Shown: piece by piece, positions 4,658 through 63,830 of the stretch
Numbering within the stretch: position 1 is the first letter of the stretch
Layout of the letters: every line of letters begins with the position of its first letter
Source of the DNA: Octopus vulgaris
Lineage: Eukaryota
Direction: 5' to 3'
Assembly: GCA_951406725.2 (NCBI GenBank)
Contig: OX597819.1
Location: 123,380,001 to 123,444,000 of the forward strand
Length of the DNA stretch: 64,000 bases
Notes under the pieces: model-generated
Seen by the model: only the letters and a program-made list of their open reading frames with translations
What the model was told of the DNA's origin: nothing
Database searches by the model: none
Position numbers and translations under genes: made by a program

Positions 4658-6249
4658 TGAGTGAATTATAGAGTAAATTTTAGGGCTTATAAATTAAATA
4701 TTTTTTGTCCACTTCCTTAATGCCGATTCCCATATGCTGCTCATATCTGCACTCGGTCTGCTTAGGAGATTATTGTATCCTAGCATATGTACTGCTGCTT
4801 TTAGTTTTCGTATTTTCCTGTGGTGCTCCCTGTCTATTATTTTAAATTCATCCCACAGGGGGAGGTGGTCTCCGTTTTTCCATACATGATCAGCCATACC
4901 CGTCTTTTCAACATCTCGTTTCACAGCCTTAAGGTGTGACACGAGAAGTTGAGTGGACGGCATGTTTCGCCTTTGTATAACCTACTACAACTGCATGGGA
5001 TGGAGTACACGTAGTCTTTTGTCATATTCTCTTCCATTGGTGGTTTTACTCGAAGAAGATATTTGCAAAGTGTTGTATTACTCTTGAGTACGGTCCTGAT
5101 GTCATATGAACCGCATCTTTTCCGAGAGGCTTTTCACATAGGGCACACAGGCTGTGGTTTATTTATGGTTTTCATCATCTCGCCTCTTCCTAATTGGAAT
5201 AGATAGTATATTTCGGGGTAGTTGTTGCTTAATAGATTGTTACTTAGCTTGAGCATTTCTTCGTTTTGTGTATCAAGATCGCTACTTATATTCTTTGCTC
5301 ATTGCTCATCCCTCTCTTTACACTGTATGAAGCTGAGTTATCGTCCACTGAAGGTTGACTTGCAGTATGCGGATGCCATGAACCTATGCTTCCTGCGTGT
5401 TTTTAATACATCCAGGAATGCTAGCTGATTATCTTTTTCCTTTTCCGTTGTGAACTGTATGGCTTTATTGAGATTATATTGTCTAGCAGTACTTGGACAT
5501 ATTCCTTGTGGGGCCAGACTATAAAGGTATCATCAACGTATCGAAACCATAGGGTTGGCTTTAGTGGTGTTGAACCTAAAGCCAAATTCTCAAAATATTC
5601 CATGTATATATTGGCTATTATAGGTGATAATGGTGAACCCATAGCCAAACCCTCATCTTGTCGATATATATCAGTATCTACTCTGAAGTAGGTAGTCAAA
5701 ATTTGCATCAAATTTCATATTGGTATACTAGCGCGATCTTTTAGATAGGTGTCTGTCACTAGTTTTACTTGAATCCCTGAGAGTGCTTCATTAGTTGGGA
5801 TTTTGGTGAACAGATTTATCACATCTAAACTTACCATCTGGTTGAATCCAATAGGGGTATCCTTGATCAATTCTGTGAAGTGGATGAAGTTCATCACATA
5901 ATGTTGATTTACCTGCTAATCGATTGATTATATCCACAAGGAAACGGTTCAGTGGATGACATGCCGAACCTCAACCATTCACTATGGGTCTTAATGGAAT
6001 ACCAACCTTGTGAATCTTAGGGAGACCGTACATGTGGTAGCTTACTGTATTTGTTTCTAATTCACTCTATAATTGCATGTAAAAGAGGTAAGCAGTTCTG
6101 AAAGTGATTCAATTGAGGTAGATATGATTAATAGAATATGAATGGTATTTGAGATCATGTGGATTAGTAGAATTAGTAAGGTTAGTAGTGTCCTGTATTA
6201 AGTCGTGTGTTCATGTTAAGTTTTCGTTGATATTTCTTACTGAAAGTTG

Positions 6250-8837: not shown

Positions 8838-9814
8838 TCTTTTCTACTCTAGGTACAAGACACGACATTTTTAGGGAGGGGACCAGTCGATTAGATCAAC
8901 CCCAGTATGCAGTTGGTACTTAATTTATCGACCCCGAAAGAATGAAAGGCAAAGTCGACCTCGGTGGAATTTGAACTCAGAACGTAAAATACAGACGAAA
9001 TACCTATTTCTTTACTACCCATAAGGGGCTAAACAAGGAGGGATCGAACAAGGACAGACAAACGGATTATGTCGATTATATCGACCCCAGTGCGTAACTG
9101 ATACTTATTTAATCGACCCCGAAAGGATGAAAGGCAAAGTCGACCTCGGCGGAATTTGAACTTAGAACGTAGAGGCAGACGAAATACCGCTAAGCATTTC
9201 GCGTGGCGTGCTAACGTTTCTTATTTCTTTCTTGCCCAAAAGGGGCTAAACATAGAGGGGACAATCAAGGACAGACAAAGGGATTAAGTCGATTATATCG
9301 TTTCCAGTGCGTAGCTGGTACTTAATTTATTGACCCCGAAAGGATGAAAGGCAAAGTCGACCTCAGCAGAATTTGAGCTCAGAAAGTAACGGCAGACGAA
9401 ATACCTATTTCTTTACTACACACAAGGGGCTAAACACAGAGAGGAGAAACAAGGACAGACAAACGGATTAAGTCGATTATATCGTTTCCAGTGCGTAACT
9501 GGCACTTAATTTATCGACCCCGAAATGATGAAAGGCCAAGTCGACCTCGGCGGAATTTGAACTCAGAACCTAGCGTCAGACGAAATACCTATTTCTTTAC
9601 TAGCCACAAGAGGCTAAACACAGAGAGGACAAACAAGGACAGACAAACACATTAAGTCGATTATATCGCCCCCAGTGGTACTTATTTAATCGACCCCGAA
9701 AGGCTGAAAGGCAAAGTCGATCTCGGCGGAATTTGAACTCAGAACGTAGCGGCAGACGAAATACCGTTAAGCATTTTGGCCGGCGTGCTAACGTTTCTGC
9801 CACCTCGCCGCCTT
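8838..9814 (-). mobile_element. SINE family 1 pentamer with 16-bp TSD
   Basis: Five tandem units carrying the aagtcgacctcggcggaatttgaactc core. Flanking direct repeat ttctacgttcagataa at 8822-8837 and 9815-9830. Confidence 0.9.
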
Positions 9815-22746: not shown

Positions 22747-22799
<53 letters not shown>

Positions 22800-22856
22800 C
22801 ATTATTGGTGAATTGAAGAAATGGAGCTGAACGCAGATTGAACGGAAATCGTTTTA

Positions 22857-22946
22857 TTTCATTCTACACGTGTTTCGAAAGGCACAAATTACCAAAATCC
22901 GATGGAATAATGGGACCATATTGTGTCTTTCTCTTCAGGAAGAAAA
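22857..22946 (-). ncRNA. Type I hammerhead ribozyme (left arm)
   Basis: Mirror copy of 24730-24818. Confidence 0.85.
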
Positions 22947-23533
22947 TAGGAAATCCGTTGGAAAAACAAAAACAGAACAGAGGCGGAGCAAAAACAAATC
23001 GAACTATGCTCCTAAGAGCCCATGGCGAAACTGTTTATCAGTGTATGTTGAGAACCGGTGGCTGAAGAATTCAACGGGTCAGGCATCGGTCAATCATGTG
23101 GGTGAGGGGGCGTAGATGTTCTTTGTGACCGAGAATAAAGTTCTGACTATTTAAGGAATATTGGATGTTTTATAAGGGGCGAGAAAAAATCTACTTAGAG
23201 ACGTGTGTGTGTGTATACTGTTCTATATACGTGTGTGTTGGCGTAGGGGTAGAAAACATTTTTTGTGTACGTGTGTGCGTTTGATCGTTCGGCTGTCAGT
23301 GGCTACTGCCGTGATGACCGTTGGGTGGCAGAAAAAAAATATACATCATGTTTTATGTGTGTGTGTGTTCTCATCTAAACCTGCCTTGTCAAGGAAACCC
23401 CCCGCTGTGAAAAAACCAAGCCCCGTTTGTCTTACAGGAGTAATTCCCCTTGCAGTGGTTAATCGTAGATATCTTAAAGGCTATTTCAGAATTTGTTACC
23501 AAGGGCTATGGGTGCCGGTATTATTTATAAACG

Positions 23534-23930
23534 CTATTTAAAAGCCAGATAAGTGTAACGCCGCCAATGGGGGCATCGAAAAGCCGACTGTAAAAGCCCG
23601 TTTACCATCCGGCCTCTGGCAAACAAAATATGGAAGAGTTCGGAGACACAAAGGTTGCACTGCCTTCTGCCCCTATCAAATGGGAGGGCCACCGACAAAA
23701 TTGACCATTCCAGCCTGTAGCTTAAGTTCGTATCCTTCAGTCGCCATATTAGCTTACTGAGTCCCGTGGTCTGGCGCTTGTTCATGTCCCGAAAAGTTGC
23801 GTAATGGTTGGAGACACGCAAAGACAATCTTGAGGATGAGGCCCCTACATAAGTGAAGACATCTGAGTCCGTGTAAACCTTGCATTGGTAGACGGCGTTT
23901 TTGATCTTGGAGTTCGCCGACGTGAATCTA
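23534..23930 (-). pseudogene. 5'-truncated GIY-YIG endonuclease domain (open frame)
   Basis: KNAVYQCKVYTDSDVFTYVGASSSRLSLRVSNH...LSKLIWRLKD...WSIL...CNLCVSE...CPH. Confidence 0.9.
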
Positions 23931-24729
23931 ATTCTGAAGGATACGAACTTAAGCTACAGGCTGGAATGGTCAATTTTGTCGGTGGCCCTCCCATTTGATA
24001 GGGGCAGAAGGCAGTGCAACCTTTGTGTCTCCGAACTCTTCCATATTTTGTTTGCCAGAGGCCGAATGGTAAACGGGCTTTTACAGTCGGCTTTTCGATG
24101 CCCCCATTGGCGGCGTTACACTTATCTGGCTTTTAAATAGCGTTTATAAATAATACCGGCACCCATAGCCCTTGGTAACAAATTCTGAAATAGCCTTTAA
24201 GATATCTACGATTAACCACTGCAAGGGGAATTACTCCTGTAAGACAAACGGGGCTTGGTTTTTTTCACAGCGGGGGGTTTCCTTGACAAGGCAGGTTTAG
24301 ATGAGAACACACACACACATAAAACATGATGTATATTTTTTTTCTGCCACCCAACGGTCATCACGGCAGTAGCCACTGACAGCCGAACGATCAAACGCAC
24401 ACACGTACACAAAAAATGTTTTCTACCCCTACGCCAACACACACGTATATAGAACAGTATACACACACACACGTCTCTAAGTAGATTTTTTCTCGCCCCT
24501 TATAAAACATCCAATATTCCTTAAATAGTCAGAACTTTATTCTCGGTCACAAAGAACATCTACGCCCCCTCACCCACATGATTGACCGATGCCTGACCCG
24601 TTGAATTCTTCAGCCACCGGTTCTCAACATACACTGATAAACAGTTTCGCCATGGGCTCTTAGGAGCATAGTTCGATTTGTTTTTGCTCCGCCTCTGTTC
24701 TGTTTTTGTTTTTCCAACGGATTTCCTAT

Positions 24730-24818
24730 TTTCTTCCTGAAGAGAAAGACACAATATGGTCCCATTATTCCATCGGATTTTGGTAATTTGTGCCTTTCGA
24801 AACACGTGTAGAATGAAA
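24730..24818 (+). ncRNA. Type I hammerhead ribozyme (right arm)
   Basis: ttc-CTGAAGA(24737-43)-gaaagacacaa...ttgtgcctttc-GAAAC-acgt-GTA(24808-10)-gaa. Palindromic helix III acacgtgt. Confidence 0.88.
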
Positions 24819-25027
24819 TAAAACGATTTCCGTTCAATCTGCGTTCAGCTCCATTTCTTCAATTCACCAATAATGTTCTAATTTCAATTATCCGCACCAA
24901 CGCACGGTTGCAACACCATATGGTTGTACCTCCAACCGTGCTGTTTTACTGCTGTGATTTTTGCTACTAAGGTATCGGTTAAACTTTTGATTAATCTACT
25001 ACAAGATTATTCATCTTTCTATTTCAC

Positions 25028-25070
<43 letters not shown>

Positions 25071-29400: not shown

Positions 29401-29422
29401 TGTATGTATGTATGTATGTATA

Positions 29423-29600
29423 TGGAGAGTTTACGAAAAAACAAAAGACGAAGACAGGTGGTGTACAAAACAAACAGATGTGTTAGTATAACGCTCGGGA
29501 ATAGAAAAAGTCTTTTACATTTCGAGCCTACGCTCTTCTACAGAAAGGGACACAGAAAAAACAAGCAGAGAAAAAAAGGAGAACTTCTTTGGTCACATGT
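29423..29600 (-). mobile_element. Short microsatellite-anchored repeat F with minimal HHR variant (29512-29547)
   Basis: Three copies in the window (also 47191 and 60272). cttt-CTGTAGA-a-gagc-gtag-gctc-GAAAT-GTA-aaag. Confidence 0.8.
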
Positions 29601-29715
29601 CATACATATATATATATATATATATATATGTAGGTCCAGGGTTGATTCGGGGTTAACCACAGTAAGTAAGGTACTCAATACATAGCAGAGTAAAATTAAT
29701 TTATTATATAGAAGG

Positions 29716-29765
29716 AGCTTCTACAGGACTAGTACTGTTTCATTCAAGAGAAATCTTCAGAAGCT
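29716..29765 (-). ncRNA. Hammerhead ribozyme, left arm (one C missing in helix I)
   Basis: agctt-CTGAAGA-tttctcttgaat-GAAACAG-tactagtc-CTGTA-gaagct. Confidence 0.75.
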
Positions 29766-30147
29766 ATTTAACAAGAATTGTATTAGCATTTATACATTTA
29801 GGCAGGTTTAAAGGAGTGGTGGTGGGGGACTTTTTTGGGGGTAGGCATAGCGCAAAATATCATACTTGGGGGAGTGGTCAAGGAGTCAGTGGTAAGTTAG
29901 ATGAAAGAATAGATAAATAAAAAAATAAAATAATAAAATAAAAAAAATAAAAAAATAAATAAATAAATAAATAAAAAAAAATAAAAAAATAAAAAAATAA
30001 AATAATAAAAAAATAAAAAATATATATAAAAAATATATATATAAAAAAATATATATATAAAAAAAGGGGGATAGAGTTATAGGTAAATAAGGAGATTCTC
30101 ACTTATACCTATACACATATGTATGCGTATCTACACACATATATATA

Positions 30148-30189
<42 letters not shown>

Positions 30190-30493
30190 TATATACACAT
30201 ATACATACATATCTACATACACACATACATACACCCGCCCACATATACAAATTTATACACATGCACATGCATATACCTGTCTACACATACACACACGTAT
30301 ATATGCATACACTCACTCCCATGCATGCACGCATACACACATGTATATATATACACACACGACCACACATACATATATACACAGAAAAATATATATTCAT
30401 ACGCACATACACTCATGCACACACAACACACCTAGTTCCCTATATACACATATTTACACCTATATATACAAACACCCACATACACATATGTAC

Positions 30494-30528
<35 letters not shown>

Positions 30529-30633
30529 CATATACACGCATACATATATATACATGTGTGCACATACATACACATACACATATACATACACACACACATA
30601 CACATGTGTACCTATACATACCTACACATACAC

Positions 30634-30678
<45 letters not shown>

Positions 30679-31004
30679 CCAATACAGGCCCATTCCCTAA
30701 TTTTAATTTTATTATCTTCATTTATTACTTTTGTTATCTTTGATCGCTAGAGCTAAGGATCCTGGCTATGGCAGCATGTCCATTTGTCTGTCTACTAGAA
30801 GGCAAGTACTCATTCCCGCACGCCCACTCATTAGCACGTACATTCACCCATTCGTACACTCATACACATACACGTACGCACGCGTTATATTCATACATAC
30901 AAACATCTACATACGTTCACGTATATACACATACGTACTCGTACCTACAGATTCGTGTCTACACTTTAGGAGGCTAGTCTATACATATACACCAATAAAT
31001 ATAC

Positions 31005-31035
<31 letters not shown>

Positions 31036-31075
31036 TACACACACACACATATACTCCTACATACAGATACATACC

Positions 31076-31127
<52 letters not shown>

Positions 31128-31333
31128 CATACACACACACACATATATATACACACACATACATACACATATATATACATACACAAACATATATACACAC
31201 ATATATATATATATATATACACACATACACACACATACATACATATACACACAAACACATACATACGTATACATACATACATACATCCATACATCCATAC
31301 TTACATGCATTTATACGCATACACACACCCCCA

Positions 31334-31370
<37 letters not shown>

Positions 31371-31427
31371 TCACACATACATATACAAATATACGCACAC
31401 ACATACATACATACACGTATACGCATA

Positions 31428-31853
31428 CACGCACATACACATATACATGCGTACCCATACACGTGCACACACGCACGTGCATCCATATATATATACACAC
31501 ACACATATATACACGTGTGCAAGCATACATACATACTCATACACACACACATACTTACATATACATATATGCACACACTTACACACATATATACATACAC
31601 ATATACATGCATACATACATATATGCATACATACACATACACGCACATACACATATACATGCGTACCCATACACGTGCACACACGCACGCGCATCCATAT
31701 ATATACACACACACACATATATACACGTGTGCAAGCATACATACATACTCATACACGCACACATACTTACATATACATATATGCACACACTTACACACAT
31801 ATATACATACACATATACATGCATACATACATATATGCATACATACACACACG
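31428..31853. repeat. Two tandem units of about 212 bp inside the cryptic (CA/TA) array
   Basis: gcgtacccatacacgtgcac...gtgtgcaagcatac occurs twice and is mirrored at about 35075-35510. Confidence 0.8.
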
Positions 31854-31857
31854 CGCA

Positions 31858-31911
<54 letters not shown>

Positions 31912-32200
31912 CACATATACACACACACATACATACACACATACATATACATACACATACACATACATACATATATATATATATATACACATATATACAC
32001 ATATACACATACATATATACACATATACATACATATACATACACACACACATACATATATACATATACACTGATACACATACCCATACATATATATATAT
32101 ATATACACACACACATATATACACATGCATATACTTATATCTCTACATACTCACATATAAACATATATATACATACACACATATATATATACATGTACAT

Positions 32201-32235
<35 letters not shown>

Positions 32236-32237
32236 CC

Positions 32238-32273
<36 letters not shown>

Positions 32274-33163
32274 TACATATACATATACATGTATACATAC
32301 GCAATAATGATACACATATATACACATACACACACACAGACAGATGCATATACATACATATATATATAAATTACATATCTACATAAATACATACATAATA
32401 CACATATACACACACATATATATATACATGCATATACATATACAAATATACATACACATACATACACACACACACACACACATACATATACACACACACA
32501 TATACAAATACATACATACACACATACACACACACACATATATACATACATGTACACACATACATATATATATATATCAACAAGGGAGGGTAAAGTTAAT
32601 TAGTTATTAATCGATTTCACCAAGTATTCAGTATGTAAAGGGACCATTATTATTTTGAGTAAACAATGTTAGAGGGAAAAAAATTCTCTAAGTAGTGGAA
32701 GAGGCTAAAAAACTTTATTGGCTGCTATTTCTAGAAAGTTTAGTATGTGGCAAAGTAATTTATTTTATTTTACTAAGCCCTAATTATATAATATTTTATA
32801 CACACATACACATACATAAACACATACATTTACACATACATATGCATATACGTATATACACATATACATACAAACACATATACATATATACACACACACA
32901 CACATACAAGCACATACATATATATATATATATATACATATATGCAAATATATATACATATATATATTTTTACATGCATACATACACACACACACACATA
33001 ATACATGCGTATATTCCTACTGTACCCATGCATTTCTATACATATATACATACATACGATACACATATACAAGCGTGCACATACAATATGTGAAAGGTCT
33101 TAGGAGAAAAGGTGCAGGGGGGGGGTTGGGGGGGTTGTGGGGGGGGTTGTAGGGGGGTTGTCA

Positions 33164-33425
33164 TCAATCAGGTTGCCGGGTAGGTCTATAGTTCTTGTAG
33201 TTCGCATACTTCTTATGCATGCAATTTGGGGAGTGTTCTGAAAATTTGTTAAGGAGAGGGCCTTTGGCGAACAAGATCTCTAGGCTCTCTGATATGCATA
33301 GGTCACAGCAGGTATGTCCTCCTGTGTACGAGCGCGCCTTCTGTAGTAGTTTCCACTTGGTCTTGAAGGGGATTGAGTTCCTTTTAAGGTACCAGATGTG
33401 GGCGGCGAGTTGATTTTTGTTGATT
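33164..33425 (-). pseudogene. GIY-YIG endonuclease C-terminal fragment
   Basis: KNQLAAHIWYLKRNSIPFKTKWKLLQKARSYTGGHTCCDLCISESLEILFAKGPLLNKFSEHSPNCMHKK...stop. This frame is not in the ORF track. Confidence 0.88.
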
Positions 33426-33462
33426 TTTTGTTAAGACTTTTCTTTTCTATGACGGATCCCAC

Positions 33463-33810
33463 TGGATCAACAAAAAATCTGTGACCCCCTTCGACGTCAG
33501 CATGGTGCTAACGACTCTGCTGAAATAAGTGACCTAATGGGCCTTTTCATCCTTCATAGGCTGAAAACCCTATTCACAGGCCTCTCCGGTGGTCTACTAC
33601 AGCTGTGATGACTCGCCATTTCGCCCTCCACAATTTGTACCCCAGGAGCCTACGGATGGGTTCTTGATACAATTTTCAGACACTTCTTTAAAAACTTAGG
33701 CCATAGCATTACCCTAGATATGCAACTTAACTAAGGCTAACTTCCTAGACCTCACCCTCGACTTAAAAACGGTGATTTGACAACCCGTACCCCAATACCA
33801 AATGCACTCT
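33463..33810 (+). pseudogene. PLE reverse transcriptase fragment, frameshifted
   Basis: PFDVSM / ANDSAEISDLMGLFILHRL...SGGL / FFKNLGHSIT / NLTKANFLDLTLDLK. Confidence 0.85.
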
Positions 33811-34666
33811 CTAAGACCTTTCTAGATGTCAATGTGCAACCACTCCAGAAATATATGTAGATATCATAGTAATATAGTATATATGTATAAATGCATCCGC
33901 CACGGAAGCTTTAAGGCCGCAGCCCCCTATTACAACGAGGCATGTGTGTATGTATGCATGTAAAGAATATATATATGTATATATATTTGCATATATGTAT
34001 ATATATATATATATATATGTATGTGCTTGTATGTGTGTGTGTGTGTGTATATATGTATATGTGTTTGTATGTATATGTGTATATACGTATATGCATATGT
34101 ATGTGTAAATGTATGTGTTTATGTATGTGTATGTATGTATAAAATATTATATAATTAGGGCTTAGTAAAATAAAATAAATTACTTTGCCACATACTAAAC
34201 TTTCTAGAAATAGCAGCCAATAAAGTTTTTTAGCCTCTTCCACTACTTAGAGAATTTTTTTCCCTCTAACATTGTTTACTCAAAATAATAATGGTCCCTT
34301 TACATACTGAATACTTGGTGAAATCGATTAATAACTAATTAACTTTACCCTCCCTTGTTGATATATATATATATGTATGTGTGTACATGTATGTATATAT
34401 GTGTGTGTATGTATGTGTGTATGTATGTATTTGTATATGTGTGTGTGTATATGTATGTGCGCGCGTGTGTGTGTATGTATGTGTATGTATATTTGTATAT
34501 GTATATGCATGTATATATATATGTGTGTGTATATGTGTATTATGTATGTATTTATATAGATATGTAATTTATATATATATGTATGTATATGCATCTGTCT
34601 GTGTGTGTGTATGTGTATATATGTGTATCATTATTATGTATGTATACATGTATATGTGTATATGTA

Positions 34667-34704
<38 letters not shown>

Positions 34705-35563
34705 GGTATATATGTATATATATATATATATATGTATGTGTATGTACATGTATATATATATGTGTGTATGTATATATATGTTTATATGTGAGTATGTAGA
34801 GATATAAGTATATGCATGTGTATATGTGTGTGTATATATATATATATATATGTATGGGTATGTGTATCAGTGTATATGTATATATGTATGTGTGTGTGTA
34901 TGTATATGTATGTATATGTGTATATATGTATGTGTATATGTGTATATATGTGTATATATATATATATATATGTATGTGTATGTGTATGTATATGTATGTG
35001 TGTATGTATGTGTGTGTGTGTATATATGTATATATATATGTATATATATATGTATATATATGTATATATATGAGTGCGCGTGTGTGTATGTATGCATATA
35101 TGTATGTATGCATGTATATGTGTATGTATATATGTGTGTAAGTGTGTGCATATATGTATATGTAAGTATGTGTGCGTGTATGAGTATGTATGTATGCTTG
35201 CACACGTGTATATATATGTGTGTGTGTGTATATATATGGATGCGCGTGCGTGTGTGCACGTGTATGGGTACGCATGTATATGTGTATGTGCGTGTATGTG
35301 TATGTATGCATATATGTATGTATGCATGTATATGTGTATGTATATATGTGTGTAAGTGTGTGCATATATGTATATGTAAGTATGTGTGTGTGTATGAGTA
35401 TGTATGTATGCTTGCACACGTGTATATATGTGTGTGAGTGTATATATATGGATGCACGTGCGTGTGTGCACGTGTATGGGTACGCATGTATATGTGTATG
35501 TGCGTGTATGCGTATACGTGTATGTATGTATGTGTGTGCGTATATTTGTATATGTATGTGTGA

Positions 35564-35608
<45 letters not shown>

Positions 35609-35706
35609 TGGGGGTGTGTGTATGCGTATAAATGCATGTAAGTATGGATGTATGGATGTATGTATGTATGTATACGTATGTATGTGTTTGTGTGTATATG
35701 TATGTA

Positions 35707-35757
<51 letters not shown>

Positions 35758-35824
35758 ATATATGTTTGTGTATGTATATATATGTGTATGTATGTGTGTG
35801 TGTGTATATATATGTGTGTGTGTG

Positions 35825-35880
<56 letters not shown>

Positions 35881-35923
35881 GGTATGTATCTGTATGTAGG
35901 AGTATATGTGTGTGTGTGTATGT

Positions 35924-35955
<32 letters not shown>

Positions 35956-36275
35956 TTATTGGTGTATATGTATAGACTAGCCTCCTAAAGTGTAGACACG
36001 AATCTGTAGGTACGAGTACGTATGTGTATATACGTGAACGTATGTAGATGTTTGTATGTATGAATATAACGCGTGCGTACGTGTATGTGTATGAGTGTAC
36101 GAATGGGTGAATGTACGTGCTAATGAGTGGGCGTGCGGGAATGAGTACTTGCCTTCTAGTAGACAGACAAATGGACATACTGCCATAGCCAGGATCCTTA
36201 GCTCTAGCGATCAAAGATAACAAAAGTAATAAATGAAGATAATAAAATTAAAATTAGGGAATGGGCCTGTATTGG

Positions 36276-36322
<47 letters not shown>

Positions 36323-36427
36323 GTGTATGTGTAGGTATGTATAGGTACACATGTGTATGTGTGTGTGTATGTATATGTGTATGTGTATGTATGTGCACAC
36401 ATGTATATATATGTATGCGTGTATATG

Positions 36428-36461
<34 letters not shown>

Positions 36462-36766
36462 TGTACATATGTGTATGTGGGTGTATGTATATATAGGTGT
36501 AAATATGTGTATATAGGGAACTAGGTGTGTTGTGTGTGCATGAGTGTATGTGCGTATGAATATATATTTTTCTGTGTATATATGTATGTGTGGTCGTGTG
36601 TGTATATATATACAAGTGTGTATGCGTGCATGCATGGGAGTGAGTGTATGCATATATACGTGTGTGTATGTGTAGACAGGTATATGCATGTGCATGTGTA
36701 TAAATTTGTATATGTGGGCGGGTGTATGTATGTGTGTATGTAGATATGTATGTATATGTGTATATA

Positions 36767-36812
<46 letters not shown>

Positions 36813-37193
36813 TATATATATGTGTGTAGATACGCATACATATGTGTATAGGTATAAGTGAGAATCTCCTTATTTACCTATAACTCTATCCCCCTTTTTT
36901 ATATATATATTTTTTTATATATATATTTTTTATATATATTTTTTATTTTTTTATTTTTTTATTTTTTTATTTTTTTATTTTTTTTTATTTATTTATTTTT
37001 TTATTTTTTTATTTTTTTATTTTATTATTTTATTTTTTTTATTTATCTATTCTTTCATCTAACTTACCACTGACTCCTTGACCACTCCCCCAAGTATGAT
37101 ATTTTGCGCTATGCCTACCCCCAAAAAAGTCCCCCACCACCACTCCTTTAAACCTGCCTAAATGTATAAATGCTAATACAATTCTTGTTAAAT

Positions 37194-37244
37194 AGCTTCC
37201 TGAAGATTTCTCTTGAATGAAACAGTACTAGTCCTGTAGAAGCT
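37194..37244 (+). ncRNA. Type I hammerhead ribozyme, right arm, with monomeric helix III
   Basis: agcttc-CTGAAGA-t-ttc(tctt)gaa-t-GAAACAG-tactagtc-CTGTA-gaagct. Predicted cleavage after 37238. Confidence 0.85.
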
Positions 37245-37619
37245 CCTTTTATATAATAAATATATATATATATATATATATACGCACGCGCACGCGCGCA
37301 CACATATACACACACATGTATACATATATATAAGCACACAATTAGCATATGTTTGCCAGCACCAAAAGTAAAGATACCTATTTAGTGAGCTACTTACAGT
37401 CTCATGAAAACATGTCCGTTTTATAATATCACTTCAGTATTCAATACGGAAAGGCTTTATATCTCAATCAGCATGCAACATGAACAAGAAAAACACATCA
37501 ATCTGCCTTAGTTGAGCTACAACCCCGGTTTTGGTTCATGCAAAAAAAATTGAACAATGATCAAGATTGTACATTTCATTATTAAGTGTATAATTACTGT
37601 TGTAATTATTATTATTCTC

Positions 37620-40624: not shown

Positions 40625-41385
40625 TCGTTTTATGTTCTGAGTTCGAATTCCGCCTAGGTCGACATTGCCTTTCGTCCTTTCGGGGTCGATAAATTAAGTA
40701 CCAGTTGCATACTAGGATACATACAGTTGCATACTAGTGGGCCAGTCTAATCGACTGGCCCACTCCCCAAAAGTTTCGGGTCCTTGTGCCAAGAGTAGAA
40801 AAGAATATATTTAAAGATGGCGAACTGACAGAAAAGTTAGCAAGCTGCGCGAAATGCTGAGCGGTATTTCGTCTGCCGCTAAGTTCTGAGTTCAAATTCC
40901 GCCGAGGTCGACTTTGCCTTTCATCCTTTCGGTGTCGCTAAATTAGGCACCATTTGCATACTAGGGTCAATCTAATCGACTTAATCCGTTTGTCTGTCCT
41001 TGTTTGTCCCCTCTATGTTTAGCCCCTTGTGGGTAGTAAAGAAATAGGTATTTCGTCTGCCGTTATGTTCTGAGTTCAAATTCCGCCGAGGTCGACTTTG
41101 CCTTTCATCCTTTCGAGGTCGATAAATTAAGTACCAGTTACGCACTGGGGTCGATATAATCGACTTAATCCCTTTGTCTGTCCTTGTTTGTCCTCTCTGT
41201 GTTTAGCTCCTAGTGGGTAGTAGAGAAATAGGTATTTCGTCAGCCGCTACGTTCTGAGTTCAAATTCCGCCGAGATCAACTTTACCTTTCATTCTTTCGG
41301 CGTCGATAAATTAGGTACCATTTGCGTACTAGGGTCGATCTGATCCCCTGCCCCAAAATTTCGGGCCTTGTACCTAGTGTAGAAA
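40625..41385 (+). mobile_element. SINE family 1 monomer plus trimer
   Basis: Four core units near 40640, 40890, 41070 and 41255. Confidence 0.88.
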
Positions 41386-47134: not shown

Positions 47135-47190
<56 letters not shown>

Positions 47191-47193
<3 letters not shown>

Positions 47194-47400
47194 AGAGTTT
47201 ACGAAAAAAAACAAAAGACGAAGACAGGTGGTGTACAAAACAAACAGATGTATTAGTATAACGCTCAGGAATAGAAAAATTCTTTTACGTTTCGAGCCTA
47301 CGCTGTTCGATAAAAAGGAGTACAAGGAAATAAATAGAGAATAAAAATAAAACGGAGTGAGAATAACTGTGAAGAGTTTAGCGGTCTAACATGGCGATGA
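47191..47400 (-). mobile_element. Repeat F copy with decayed HHR
   Basis: Similar to 29423-29600 and starts at (TA)n. Confidence 0.8.
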
Positions 47401-51261: not shown

Positions 51262-52524
51262 CAGAGATTTGACAAAATAATGGAAATACCTTAAATTTTC
51301 AAACAAATTTATTTTAATATGGGGTAGGACCAGCTTTGGCAGTAATTACAGCTTGAATTGGACTCGTACAAAGTTTGAATTGTTTCCAAAGGAACTTTTG
51401 GCCATTTTTCAGCTAAAACAGTCTCCAGTTCTTGTAGTGATGATGGTGGAGGATATCGAATCATTACCTGTTTTCTTTTTTAAATGCACTATAAATGTTC
51501 AATAATATTGAGATCTAGGGGCTGTGGTGGCCAGATAAGATGTTCAACTTCACTAGAATGTTCCTCGTGCCATTCAGTAACAACTTTAGCTGTGCGAATT
51601 GGTGCATTATCATCCTGAAAGATTGCATTTCCCTCCGGAAACAGTTCCGCAACCATAGGATGAATTTGATCAGACAAAATGCTTAAATAGTCATGACTAT
51701 TAATTCTGCCATGAAGGGAAACCATTGGGCCGGCGAATTTCCAAGATATAGCCCCCACCCTGATCATCACAGATCCTCCTCCATGTTTAACTGTTGGAAG
51801 AAGGCAGTCTGCGTCAAACGCTTCTTTTGGCTGTCTCCACACGTATACTCGGTCAGGTGGTCGGAAATAAGGTAAAGGATAGCTCGTCCGAGAAAATAGC
51901 AGTCTTCCTCTGCTCTAGAGTCTAATTCTGTAGGTTTTACTTCACTGAAAACGCTTAGCAAGGTTTGTTTTTGAAAGTAGTGGGTTTCTGATTGCAGTCT
52001 TGTCATGAAATCCGGCTTTGTGCAGCTCCCGGCGAACAGGTTTTTGTGGAAACTGGGTTGTCGAGGTGGTCATTAAGCTCTGCAGTAATTTTGGGAGCTG
52101 TACTTTTGTGATCCTTTCTAACAATTTGCGTAAGAGTCCGACGGTCCCTATCTGAATGCTTTGGTTTTCCTCCGGACTTTTGTTTCGACGAGGAGGTTTT
52201 TCCCTCTCTCTCAAAGGCTGTCATTACTTTCAAGGCAGTACTTCTTGGCACACCAATCATTTCGGCTGTTTTCATTACGCTAACGCCTGCCATACGAGCA
52301 TCAACAATTTGACTTCTTTGAAAGTCTGATAGATCTGTTATTCTAATGAATTTTAATTACCTTTCTCTGATGATATCTGAAAAGAAACAGTAAATTTTAG
52401 CAAATCATATCAAGCAACACTAATAATAAATTTAAAAAAACATAAAAATAAACAAGCTTTTCTAGATATTTCAAAATTATGATGCTATGATTCTAGGTGT
52501 TTCCATTAGTTTGTCCAACCCCTG
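51262..52524 (-). mobile_element. Tc1-family transposon, full length, frameshifted DD34E transposase
   Basis: TIRs cagagatttgacaaaataatggaaatacct / aggtgtttccattagtttgtccaacccctg. TVKHGGGSVM, FQDDNAP, WPPQPLDLNIIEHL. Confidence 0.93.
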
Positions 52525-60205: not shown

Positions 60206-60271
<66 letters not shown>

Positions 60272-60275
<4 letters not shown>

Positions 60276-60456
60276 TTTACGAAAAGAAACAAAAGACGAA
60301 GACAGGTAGTGTACAAAACAAACAGATGTATTAGTATAACACTCAGGAATAGAAAAAGTATTTTACGTTTCGAGCCTACGCTCTTCTACAGAAAGGGACA
60401 CAGAAAAAACAAGGGGAGAAAAAAAATGTGTGTAGTGGCTAACGATCTATCATGGC
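60272..60456 (-). mobile_element. Repeat F copy with minimal HHR variant (60361-60394)
   Basis: ttt-CTGTAGA-a-gagc-gtag-gctc-GAAAC-GTA-aaa. Confidence 0.82.
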
Positions 60457-60847: not shown

Positions 60848-63830
60848 CAGGAATCCCTCGCTTTACGTGATGAATTTTCGAAAATCTGGCAGGGACGCGA
60901 AATTGCTTAAGGCAAATTTAATTCTCCTTTTGATTTTCATAACATCAAGTGAGATTGCATTCCTATAGACTTTTTTAGAAAAAAAAGATAAGAAAGAAAA
61001 TAAGCATAATAAAACAACAGAGAACAGCCAAGGCGATCACCTACATGCGTGGAATTAACTATTTCTAAACTTGCGTAACAAAATATGGAACATAAACACA
61101 TTCAATTGGAATACCTAAGGGAATTAATAACAATCGTAATGTCGTAAACTTATATTCTCACCGCAAAAGATGGTGACTGCTGTATGAGGTGTGATGGGGA
61201 ATCAGCATTACTAAGAAGATAGGGAATATTATTTACTTTCTTATAGTTCCTTATCATCTGAATGAGCTTGAATGCTGAATAATTTATCCAAAGTTGTTTG
61301 TGGTTTATATGACATCATCTCTTACAGCTCAGTATAGAAACTGAGCTTATTGTAAACTCCTTTTGTAATTTTCATGTTATGTTCATGATTAAATTTATTA
61401 TCATCAAAAATCTGCAGCCCTTCCTCTAGAGGTGCCAGCCTCTTAGCTACAATTTTTGTACTCAGTTTAAGTCATGCAGGCGGAACAGTTGTTATCTGTA
61501 TTCTCGGTCTGTTCTGTTTCTAACTGTATCAGCTGCTTGTGAAATTAACTTTCACTCTGGGACACTAGAATTTCAGTCACACCATTCTCTGGCTTCTTCA
61601 AATTCTTCATTCTTTGCACCTGTCACACTATCTCTTCGAATGTAAAGCAGACTTTCTATTTGGGGGAAAATAGTCTGACCATATCTCTTCCAAGCACTAT
61701 TCGAAGTTGAACGCTTCACTTCATCCTGTGATTCAGCTATGTTTTCCACAGCATCTATTATATAGAATTTCTTCCAGAAATCTTAGACTGTAGGTTTATT
61801 CTCATTGTCATTAGCTATCATAAATTGTTTGACATTTCTGATATAATCTGCCTCGAAGTTTGCTATCCAACCTTGAGCCATTGACAGAGTAAAGAAGTTG
61901 TATTTTGGGGGATATATTCTACTCTCACATTATCAGTAATGCCATTTAGGTCCGCTGAGTATCTCGATGCATCGCCTAAAAGAAACAATGTTTTGTTGGA
62001 AAATAGTATTCTTACGCTGAACCTCTCTCTGGCGAGACGAAAGACGTTTGTAAACCACACTTTGAACATATTCTTTCTCATCCATGACATCTTATTTGGA
62101 CACCAAAGTTTAGATAGATTAAATTTCGTGTAACCCTTGAAAGTTCTTAGATTTTCGGAATGATACACGTGAAAGGACTTCATTTTATATCACCATCGGC
62201 AATTTTTGGAAGTGTTAAACACCGGTGTTGAATTTTCTTCTCGAGAAATACGAGGGACGTTCAATAAGTAATGCCTCTGACTCACTTGCAGTTGTTTGAT
62301 CTAGCTGAAATTTTGCATGTGCAATTATTTATATCTCTATAGAGTAAGTGACAAATTACAGCTCTGAATTAATTGTGGTTTCTGATTTACAGGTGTTTGA
62401 ACCGAGTCAAGTGTGAAATGGAGCCTGTTGAGTGTCGGGCAGTGATCCGGTTTTTGTATTTGAAAGGACGCACACCACGGGAGACTTTTGATGAAATGAA
62501 AGTAACTTATGGTGATGATGCCCCATCATATGACCTTGTAAAACGCTGGCATCGTGAATTCAGACATGGTCGGAACTCTGTGGAAACAGCTCCCAGATCT
62601 GGTCGCCCCCTTCTGCCATTGATGGGGCATCTGTCCGTCAAGTTGAGGCTGCCATTTTGGAAGATCGACGCATAATTATTCGCCAAATAGCCCATGAGGT
62701 CAAGATTGGTACCGGGTCTGTGGAAACTATCATTCATGACCATTTGCATATGCAAAAGGTGTCTGCCAGATGGATTCCCAGGTTGCTCACGCCTTTCCAG
62801 AAGCAAGAACGCGTCGAGTGCTCGAGGGTGAATTTGGAGACGTGCCAAGAAGATGAGTCAAAATTTTTCAAAAGACTGATTACACAGGATGAAACCTGGG
62901 TCGATCACGATGATCCAGAGACCAAAGCCCAGTCAATGCAGTGGAAGCACTGTGACTCACCCCCTCCAAAGAAGGCAAGGGTGCAGCCCTCCGCTGGCAA
63001 GGTCATGCTCAGTCTTCTGGGACCAGGACGGAGTAGTGATGACAGATTTCCTGGAAAAGGGTACCACAATTGCAGGAGCCTATTATCCTTCACTTTTGAG
63101 GAAATTAAGAGAAGTTATCAAAATCAAGAGGCGGAGCAAGATCAGCAAAGGCATCCTCTTCCTGCAGGACAACGCTCCGGTCCACAACTCGCTTGTCGCC
63201 AGATCAGAAGCACAGGCGTATGGCTATGAACTCCTCCCCATCCCCCCTACTTTCCTGACCTTGCACCCTCTGATTTTCACCTCTTCCCAATCATGAAGTT
63301 GTTTTTGAAAGGAAAGCGTTTCCCAGATGATGCAGCCTTGATTTCTGAAGTCACGTTGAGGTTGGAGGACCAAGCTGGGTTCTTCTACAAAAACGGTCTC
63401 CAGAGCCGCATCAAACGATGGGAGAAATGCGTAACTCTGGGTGGTTCCTATGTAGAAAAAGACTAATAACTGTGCCAAGTTTCGTTGCTCTACTGCTATG
63501 GGAAGTGGGTCATGGGCATTACTTATTGAACGCCCCTCGTAAAAGTTCTAGCAAGTGTTCGCTTCTAGAAAAGAGCAATTTCATCAAAATCGTTTACTTT
63601 CTCTGGTGTATAACTCACTTCGCAAATTATTTTCTTCGACTGCTCAGAAAATTAGTTGCAGCCTTTTTATTACCGATCGCAGTCTCATCACTTATTTTTA
63701 TGTTGTGTACATTCATGAGATTCTTAAACATTTTAAAACCCGCCTTTACTAACCCCAAAAAGAATTTTCATTCGAAGTTTCACCTTTTTTCTGTAAGTCA
63801 CCATATAAATTTTTAGTTTCTTTTTGAAAT
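60848..63830 (-). mobile_element. Decayed Tigger/pogo transposon split by a mariner insertion
   Basis: VYHSENLRTFKG...NKMSWM...VEYIPQNTTSL. The segment FDEIALF*KRTLARTF|ISREE is continuous across the mariner. TIR-like caggaatccctcgctttacg. Confidence 0.78.
62251..63539 (+). mobile_element. Full-length mariner (DD34D), transposase 62418-63466 with about 3 frameshifts
   Basis: TIRs cgagggacgttcaataagtaatgcc / ggcattacttattgaacgcccctcg, TA TSD, WIPRLL, TQDETWV, QDNAPVH, PDLAPSDF. Confidence 0.95.

What the first reader, a model, noticed from the sequence alone, without database searches (positions are those of the whole stretch)
29631..37261. 7.6-kb palindrome whose apparent microsatellite sea is the 3' UTR of a PLE
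Seen: two inverted arms of about 3.3 kb made of cryptic (CA/TA) sequence with unique islands and an A/T tract. Each arm ends in an HHR and then (TA)n. The arms differ mostly in repeat lengths plus a few substitutions. Inferred: one insertion event copied a 3-kb low-complexity UTR twice, so this element is a vehicle that spreads complex microsatellite arrays. Read-through transcription would give a kilobase-scale dsRNA hairpin, a candidate ADAR or siRNA substrate.
Basis: partly seen in the sequence, partly recalled or inferred. Interest (0 to 1): 0.72.

Follow-up and report, generated by a model that had tools for sequence, protein, structure and literature searches.

The report
Penelope retrotransposon hauling kilobases of microsatellite
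This 7.6-kb mirror-image stretch is two back-to-back copies of a Penelope-like jumping gene whose 3.4-kb tail of simple repeats recurs in the same order at many other sites, so the element likely spreads ready-made repeat arrays that also serve as landing sites for itself and other elements, though it would account for only about 0.1% of the genome.

Summary
Confirmed. The arms (29699-32990 and 33942-37261, about 99% alike) are the 3' UTR of a Penelope-like element (PLE) with Hydra-clade motifs: RT, C-terminal GIY-YIG, hammerhead, (TA)n target. The order EN stop, islands, A/T tract, hammerhead recurs in 19 of 20 EN-bearing loci. The 1.85-kb repeat sea aligns at 90-99% in 47 other arms. UTRs measure 1.5-3.9 kb, whereas published Hydra elements are about 3 kb or less in total. 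One island is a whole head-to-head stub of a separate 560-nt hammerhead repeat, trapped in the UTR. The family also inserts into its own UTR (TA)n tracts. All 85 head-to-head pairs scored have one long and one short end, which argues against a foldback artefact; the scan noted this rule before on other DNA of this genome. About 1,226 arms reach the middle island, roughly 3 Mb or 0.1% of the genome. Caveats: 33597-33915 is a mosaic, likely an assembly consensus artefact; no spanning long reads were available; an editing footprint did not beat its control; dsRNA is untested. PLE-borne microsatellites are already reported in shrimp. Verdict: new variant of a known kind.

The parts
29631..29698 (-). 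68-nt tail (long end), followed by target (TA)n; in intact copies this sequence continues into the 5' UTR
   Evidence: matches L045:3051-3118, just upstream of the ORF start
29716..29765 (-). type I hammerhead motif, left copy, one base short at the stem I/core boundary
   Evidence: layout as in the Hydra table of PMC8557442 File S2
29699..33163 (-). complete 3' UTR of the left copy (about 3.44 kb from stop to hammerhead): hammerhead island, A/T tract 29904-30065, TG/TA seas, islands
30676..30985 (-). island 2, found only with this family in the places checked, partly decayed repeat
   Evidence: 1,226 exact hits of an invariant 19-mer; 28 of the first 31 have the hammerhead motif 0.56-1.05 kb downstream (compared by eye)
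31351..31858 (.). 212-nt tandem duplication inside the sea
32575..32797 (.). island 3: trapped head-to-head stub (long and short end) of a separate 560-nt tandem hammerhead repeat family
   Evidence: 3,008 exact 21-mer hits, many in 560-nt arrays; halves align 70/79 and 113/140 to L139
33164..33431 (-). C-terminal end of the GIY-YIG endonuclease with its stop codon; 5'-truncation point of the left copy; last 22 nt degraded
33432..33941 (+). RT fragment (= L045:4044-4547) that starts the right copy, then jumps about 940 nt to the UTR; this junction is unique in the genome
33597..33915 (+). mosaic of family RT and the left copy's EN/post-stop sequence; likely a consensus artefact
33942..37261 (+). 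3' UTR of the right copy (islands at 34138-34360 and 35969-36278), ending at the short end before target (TA)n
37194..37244 (+). type I hammerhead motif, right copy; predicted cleavage after 37238

Best explanation
The palindrome is a head-to-head pair of 5'-truncated copies of a Hydra-type Penelope-like retrotransposon whose 3.4-kb microsatellite-rich 3' UTR recurs co-linearly across the genome, and both copies were likely made in one insertion into a (TA)n tract. Shown: the unit is hammerhead, tail, RT-EN ORF, then a 1.5-3.9 kb UTR ending in the hammerhead. Copies are cut at variable 5' points inside the sea. Every scored pair has one long and one short 3' end. The UTR holds a trapped stub of another hammerhead repeat, and family copies sit inside family UTR (TA)n tracts. 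Inferred: the GIY-YIG nicks both strands of the (TA)n target; each nick primes reverse transcription at one of two fixed sites 68 nt apart on RNA from one source element; both cDNAs run through the UTR, stop, and join head to head. Inferred: the UTR is weakly constrained cargo that grew by slippage, segmental duplication and capture of (TA)n-targeting elements, and each full copy delivers about nine new long (TA)n tracts that would be targets for later insertions.
For: Co-linearity: 35 of 36, 19 of 20, and the same plan in a sister subfamily with 95-97% ORF identity, where 16 UTRs measure 1.5-3.9 kb and 18 of 20 loci hold island 3. Sea orthology: 47 arms at 90-99% identity with 8-63 gaps, against block-shuffled controls with 63-147 gaps. 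Tandem unit of 5,387 nt in L103. End rule 85 of 85. Paired arms are closer than permuted pairs: p=2e-4 (9 pairs), 1e-4 (20 pairs) and 1e-4 (37 pairs); 19 of 20 tiny palindromes share a loop allele, 51% expected. Nested self-insertions with the UTR continuing in register in L057 and L103. Nine (TA)9+ tracts per reference UTR. An Anolis PLE cuts and extends both strands and initiates at two sites that define the tail (PMC11167929).
Against: No spanning long reads. The centre is mosaic, so its true length and the RT-to-UTR jump are unverified. The same consensus problem could homogenise long symmetric arms and inflate the arm-sharing test. Some pairs are discordant (L118; L098 differs at 10 sites of island 2). 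Pure-(TA)n changes are mostly in one arm only (6 single-arm A>G, 0 shared), so 'one RNA molecule' is not shown. No fetched copy has a complete open ORF: 22 of 24 junctions not chosen for it are out of frame. Transcription of the whole UTR was not shown.
Confidence: 0.85

Rival explanations
1. Foldback chimera or misassembly: the palindrome as a whole does not exist in the DNA.
For: The centre is a fine-scale mosaic of its two halves (score gain 138.5 against a shuffle mean of 7.6, SD 20.5, max 62). Contigs of runs X8 and X1 carry family letters at those sites. The RT-to-UTR junction occurs once in the genome.
Against: The two ends differ (tail on one side only) and the flanks are unrelated; a foldback would give identical ends. 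The same asymmetry holds in 85 of 85 pairs. Pairs of similar size occur elsewhere (L113 8.3 kb, L055 7.2 kb, L117 7.1 kb). Each half of the centre drifts towards the other, as expected if reads spanning a real palindrome were used in both orientations.
Confidence: 0.05
2. One copy inserted and the second arm arose afterwards at DNA level (fold-back of the first cDNA, or repair synthesis), or two independent insertions landed back to back.
For: The commonest stubs are perfect palindromes centred on the self-complementary AGCT of hammerhead stem I, which a snap-back could make. Arms share alleles, as a DNA copy would.
Against: The right arm holds RT sequence that the left arm lacks, and in many pairs the short-end arm is the longer one, while the tail may sit on either arm. 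Independent insertions would not give 85 of 85 long/short pairs or matched subfamily alleles.
Confidence: 0.08
3. The long UTR is functional: for example an RNA-protein binding platform, or a UG-rich strand shaped by A-to-I editing of (UA)n hairpins and fixed by reverse transcription.
For: The sense strand has TG 536 against CA 80. The UTR is kept long in all subfamilies. New interruptions in pure (TA)n tracts are A>G 32 against T>C 6.
Against: In unrelated genomic (TA)n tracts, interruptions match the orientation of neighbouring repeats in 55 of 66 cases, the same share. In non-repeat contexts the skew is reversed (A>G 21, T>C 67). UTR length varies from 1.5 to 3.9 kb, and islands diverge faster (78-92%) than ORF or hammerhead (91-97%).
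Confidence: 0.15

Closest known systems
Hydra clade of C-terminal EN+ Penelope-like elements (Craig et al. 2021, PMC8557442; seen: passages, sections 11 and 15, supplement file 1 part 2)
   Same: RT then GIY-YIG; RWR/DKT/CxCx5C/CxxC/CxH motifs; minimal type I hammerhead near the 3' end; (TA)n targets; inverted 5'-truncated copy; tail on one end only.
   Different: Unit of 5.4-5.7 kb with a 1.5-3.9 kb UTR, against 1.1-3.0 kb for all 27 listed families; tail of 68 nt against 30-40; a retrozyme-like stub nested in the UTR. Hydra-1_Obim has a different hammerhead sequence.
PAc Poseidon element of Anolis (Frangieh et al. 2024, PMC11167929; seen: parts 1-2 of 4)
   Same: Two initiation sites defining the tail; both strands cut and extended; AT-rich target; hammerhead cleavage not needed for insertion.
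   Different: Different clade; in vitro data exist for PAc and none for this family.
SSR-carrying Penelope elements of penaeid shrimp (PMC7878876; seen: passages)
   Same: Recent PLE copies above 98% identity with syntenic internal microsatellites that moved with the element.
   Different: The passages describe two copies and do not place the SSRs in a multi-kb UTR; here there are over a thousand arms, several subfamilies and nested capture.
Animal non-LTR retrozymes (10.64898/2026.07.22.740005, part 1 of 5 seen; PMC7229834, listing only)
   Same: The source of island 3 is a non-coding 560-nt tandem repeat with a type I hammerhead motif, inserted in (TA)n with long and short ends.
   Different: Only island 3 belongs here, and the stub lacks the ribozyme; circular RNA was not tested.

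Membership tests
Hydra-clade PLE | RT followed by a C-terminal GIY-YIG endonuclease | tested here: met
   L045 ORF pieces align along their length with homologues of about 700 aa, one labelled GIY-YIG endonuclease; Pfam gave no significant hit
Hydra-clade PLE | Single open ORF | tested here: inconclusive
   22 of 24 unselected junctions out of frame and 10 of 13 in the sister subfamily; RT and EN share one frame in L111, L194, L195, L198; short-read contigs hold both C-run lengths, the in-frame one at 35,558 of 60,587 depth in X6
Hydra-clade PLE | RWK motif and DKT in place of DKG | tested here: met
   IRWRSF (R for K, as in several homologues) and SDKTKN
Hydra-clade PLE | CxCx5C linker; CxxC and CxH beside the conserved E and N; no CCHH | tested here: met
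   CNCHDKTTC, CDLC before ESLE, CMH after LLN; absence of CCHH judged by eye
Hydra-clade PLE | Canonical type I hammerhead near the 3' end | tested here: met
   motif layout matches the Hydra table; Rfam no hit; cleavage not assayed
Hydra-clade PLE | Insertion into (TA)n | tested here: met
   nearly all ends listed and both ends of all 20 stubs run into (TA)n
Hydra-clade PLE | Generally short (<3 kb); descriptive, not diagnostic | tested here: not met
   unit 5,387 nt (L103) and about 5.7 kb (L045)
Hydra-clade PLE | Placement in the Hydra clade on an RT tree | not tested
Naiad/Chlamys PLE | N-terminal EN, no canonical hammerhead | tested here: not met
   EN is C-terminal and a hammerhead motif is present
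Non-LTR retrozyme (source of island 3) | Non-coding tandem monomers, each with a type I hammerhead | tested here: met
   six 560-nt units in L138, each with the core motif on the minus strand; the fold is not supported by energy
Non-LTR retrozyme (source of island 3) | Self-cleavage and circular RNA | not testable with these tools
   needs RNA work

The most novel reading that the evidence does not exclude
(TA)n-targeting PLEs with microsatellite UTRs form a feedback loop: each copy seeds about nine new target tracts, these trap further PLEs and retrozymes, and the cargo is passed on. Summed over all such families, this would make a large share of octopus compound microsatellite 'seas' retrotransposed UTR rather than local slippage.
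Probability: 0.15. Interest if true: 0.72.

Novelty: new variant of a known kind. Interest (0 to 1): 0.45.

Why it matters
Sequence that repeat finders would file as simple repeat is here the conserved, retrotransposed UTR of one element family, so PLE lengths and shares may be under-counted in microsatellite-rich genomes. The family gives a natural experiment: over a thousand copies of one compound array, for measuring slippage and decay from a known start. The strict long/short pairing with multi-kb arms offers a genomic test of how PLEs make inverted insertions, which PMC8557442 (section 15) names as open. Each long pair is also a potential multi-kb dsRNA if transcribed, which is untested. 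The share of the genome explained by this one family is small.

Tried and rejected
Rfam: no hit at gathering level; the E-value scan showed only repeat-driven miRNA models among the 150 of 313 rows listed. Hammerhead folding energies were no better than shuffles. Pfam did not recognise the RT or EN pieces. An editing footprint was tested and rejected as unproven: A>G 32 against T>C 6 in pure (TA)n, but control tracts match their neighbours in 55 of 66 cases and flanking target tracts gave 8 against 5. My first idea that EN-bearing copies without the island-2 22-mer had a different UTR was wrong; they are subfamilies with the same UTR. A programmed frameshift was considered; a homopolymer under-call or a real polymorphism fits better, and it is unresolved. 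No host gene was found: 75 of 102 open frames of 75 aa or more were scanned and gave transposon domains plus one sub-threshold DUF hit; short exons would be missed. No run on record as RNA was listed; runs only guessed to be RNA join EN to the start of the UTR, which does not show transcription. No contig covered 33792-33857 or crossed the inversion point, which proves nothing for other individuals. No non-family source was found for island 2 or island 1b among the fetched loci. Structure prediction was not run, as it would not change the verdict.
Full report
Observation. The left arm 29699-32990 matches the reverse complement of 33942-37261 with 29 substitutions and 20 short gaps. The left arm carries an extra 68-nt tail, 29631-29698, and both ends run into (TA)n. 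A type I hammerhead motif lies at 37194-37244 (+) and 29716-29765 (-). Its layout matches the Hydra hammerheads in PMC8557442 File S2, but Rfam did not call it and its fold is no more stable than shuffles. The window holds no N. The host is likely an octopus: two proteins 91% identical to the family RT carry the label Octopus vulgaris.

What the element is. The centre encodes the end of a GIY-YIG endonuclease on the minus strand (stop at 33164-33166) and an RT fragment on the plus strand. A search of the own genome with island 2 gave 1,154 candidates; all 40 scored were at least 99% identical. L045 is near full length: hammerhead, tail, ORF, 3.45-kb UTR, hammerhead. L103 holds tandem units of 5,387 nt. 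The protein has RWR, DKT, CxCx5C, CxxC and CxH motifs, the features given for the Hydra clade (PMC8557442 section 11). No tree was built. The 27 Hydra families listed there are 1.1-3.0 kb; this one is about twice as long because of its UTR.

The sea is the UTR. Island 2, island 1b and the hammerhead occur in order in 35 of 36 loci chosen by island 2. EN, post-stop sequence, island 3, island 2 and hammerhead occur in order in 19 of 20 loci chosen by EN. The 1.85-kb stretch between islands 3 and 2 aligns to 47 other arms at 90-99% identity with 8-63 gaps; 15 block-shuffled controls need 63-147 gaps. Twenty-eight UTRs measure 2.4-3.5 kb. A sister subfamily with 95-97% ORF identity has the same plan: 16 UTRs of 1.5-3.9 kb, 53-64% alternating repeat, island 3 in 18 of 20 loci. 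Copies are truncated at variable points inside the sea, as reverse transcription would leave them.

How much it spreads. Exact motif counts: hammerhead 4,328, island 2 1,226, EN 172 (a lower bound; 287 candidates for the RT/EN linker). Among the first 100 hammerhead places, 84 form 42 head-to-head pairs and 25 of these are stubs. In 93 arms of the window's subfamily the mean UTR length is 2,546 nt and 23 are complete. Scaled to 1,226 arms this gives about 3.1 Mb (0.11% of the genome), of which 1.8 Mb is alternating repeat. This is rough: local alignments may overrun into flanking repeats, and one subfamily stands for all. Against 4.8% alternating repeat in the rest of the window, the family explains on the order of 1% of such sequence.

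How the UTR grew. The island 3 21-mer has 3,008 hits, many in 560-nt tandem arrays. These arrays are non-coding, carry a hammerhead core motif per unit, and sit in (TA)n. Island 3 is a whole head-to-head stub of that family: its halves align 70/79 and 113/140 to L139. It was trapped before the subfamilies split. The family also lands in its own UTR: in L057 and L103 an inverted pair sits in a UTR (TA)n tract with the UTR continuing in register; 4 more of 116 loci are candidates (L041, L105, L159, L178). A reference UTR has nine (TA)9+ tracts. Feedback is inferred from this, not measured.

One event. All 85 head-to-head pairs scored have one long end (with tail) and one short end. Paired arms are closer than permuted pairs at three islands (p=2e-4, 1e-4, 1e-4), and 19 of 20 stubs share a loop allele where 51% is expected. 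Exceptions exist (L118, L098). This fits priming from both strands of one cut at two fixed RNA sites, as shown in vitro for an Anolis PLE (PMC11167929). Whether one RNA molecule or two from one source were copied is open: pure-(TA)n changes are mostly arm-specific. Inverted truncated copies and one-sided tails are already described for PLEs (PMC8557442), and earlier notes of this scan report the long/short rule in this genome.

Artefact at the centre. 33597-33915 is only about 75% like family RT, between stretches that match at 97-100%. It drifts, co-linearly, towards the EN/post-stop sequence on the other side: score gain 138.5, against 7.6 +/- 20.5 in 200 shuffles and at most 28 in 29 other family segments. 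The left edge drifts the other way. Contigs of runs X8 and X1 carry family letters at these sites. I read this as a consensus built from reads laid in both orientations over a real palindrome. It means the centre is unverified, the unique RT-to-UTR jump may not be real, and arm identity may be somewhat inflated. The frameshift between RT and EN (22 of 24 and 10 of 13 junctions) is likely at least partly a homopolymer error, since short-read contigs hold both lengths.

dsRNA and editing. Read-through would give a 3.3-kb duplex; that follows from the sequence. No host gene was found and no run is on record as RNA, so this is untested. New interruptions in UTR (TA)n tracts are A>G 32 against T>C 6 on the sense strand, but unrelated tracts match their neighbours' orientation in 55 of 66 cases, and non-repeat contexts show the reverse skew. 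No editing claim is made.

Comparison with print. Penelope copies carrying syntenic SSRs are reported in shrimp (PMC7878876, passages), and non-LTR elements as microsatellite sources are reviewed (PMC3812793, listing only). An octopus repeat annotation lists 31 recently active PLE families, 336 insertions, 1.83 Mb (PMC13282606, part 1 of 3); its supplements were not read and may hold this family. PMC3124438 (passages) added nothing specific. Eight literature searches showed no account of a Hydra-type PLE with a multi-kb microsatellite UTR or a nested retrozyme stub; the library is limited to open papers.

Verdict. The architecture and mechanism are known PLE behaviour. The new part is the size, stability and composite origin of the UTR. 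New variant of a known kind; interest 0.45.

Noticed in passing
window 22799-25030: A second head-to-head palindrome (arms about 950 nt, 99-100% alike) flanked by (TA)n, with a hammerhead-like motif with a long stem II near 24720-24820 and an extra tail on the right; probably another PLE family with a short UTR.
   Followed up: no
G000:C1 stubs L118-L137: The commonest insertions of this family are palindromes of about 200 nt joined at or near the self-complementary AGCT of hammerhead stem I; 25 of 42 pairs among the first 100 places are stubs.
   Followed up: partly
   Followed up: partly
L045:4636-4643 and homologous sites: The C run between RT and EN is out of frame in most assembled copies of all subfamilies, while short-read contigs hold both lengths; assembly bias or real non-autonomous lineages.
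   Followed up: partly
UTR non-repeat positions, 93 arms: Sense-strand T>C changes outnumber A>G 67 to 21 (p=5e-4 given composition); possibly an RT misincorporation bias.
   Followed up: no
window 29420-29600, 47188-47346, about 60250-60420: Three copies of a short repeat that looks like the 3' end of another hammerhead-bearing element; the first lies just left of the insertion.
   Followed up: no
window 9005-9765 and 40863-41339: Tandem arrays of a 184-nt unit, inverted to each other at 87-88% and 31 kb apart.
   Followed up: no
window 51492-52356, 61866-63293, 5424-5714: Broken Tc1/mariner transposase pieces and an RT fragment.
   Followed up: no
L031:2300-6720: A 4.4-kb element with two long ORFs (1,043 and 415 aa), probably a LINE, inserted inside the family UTR.
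   Followed up: no
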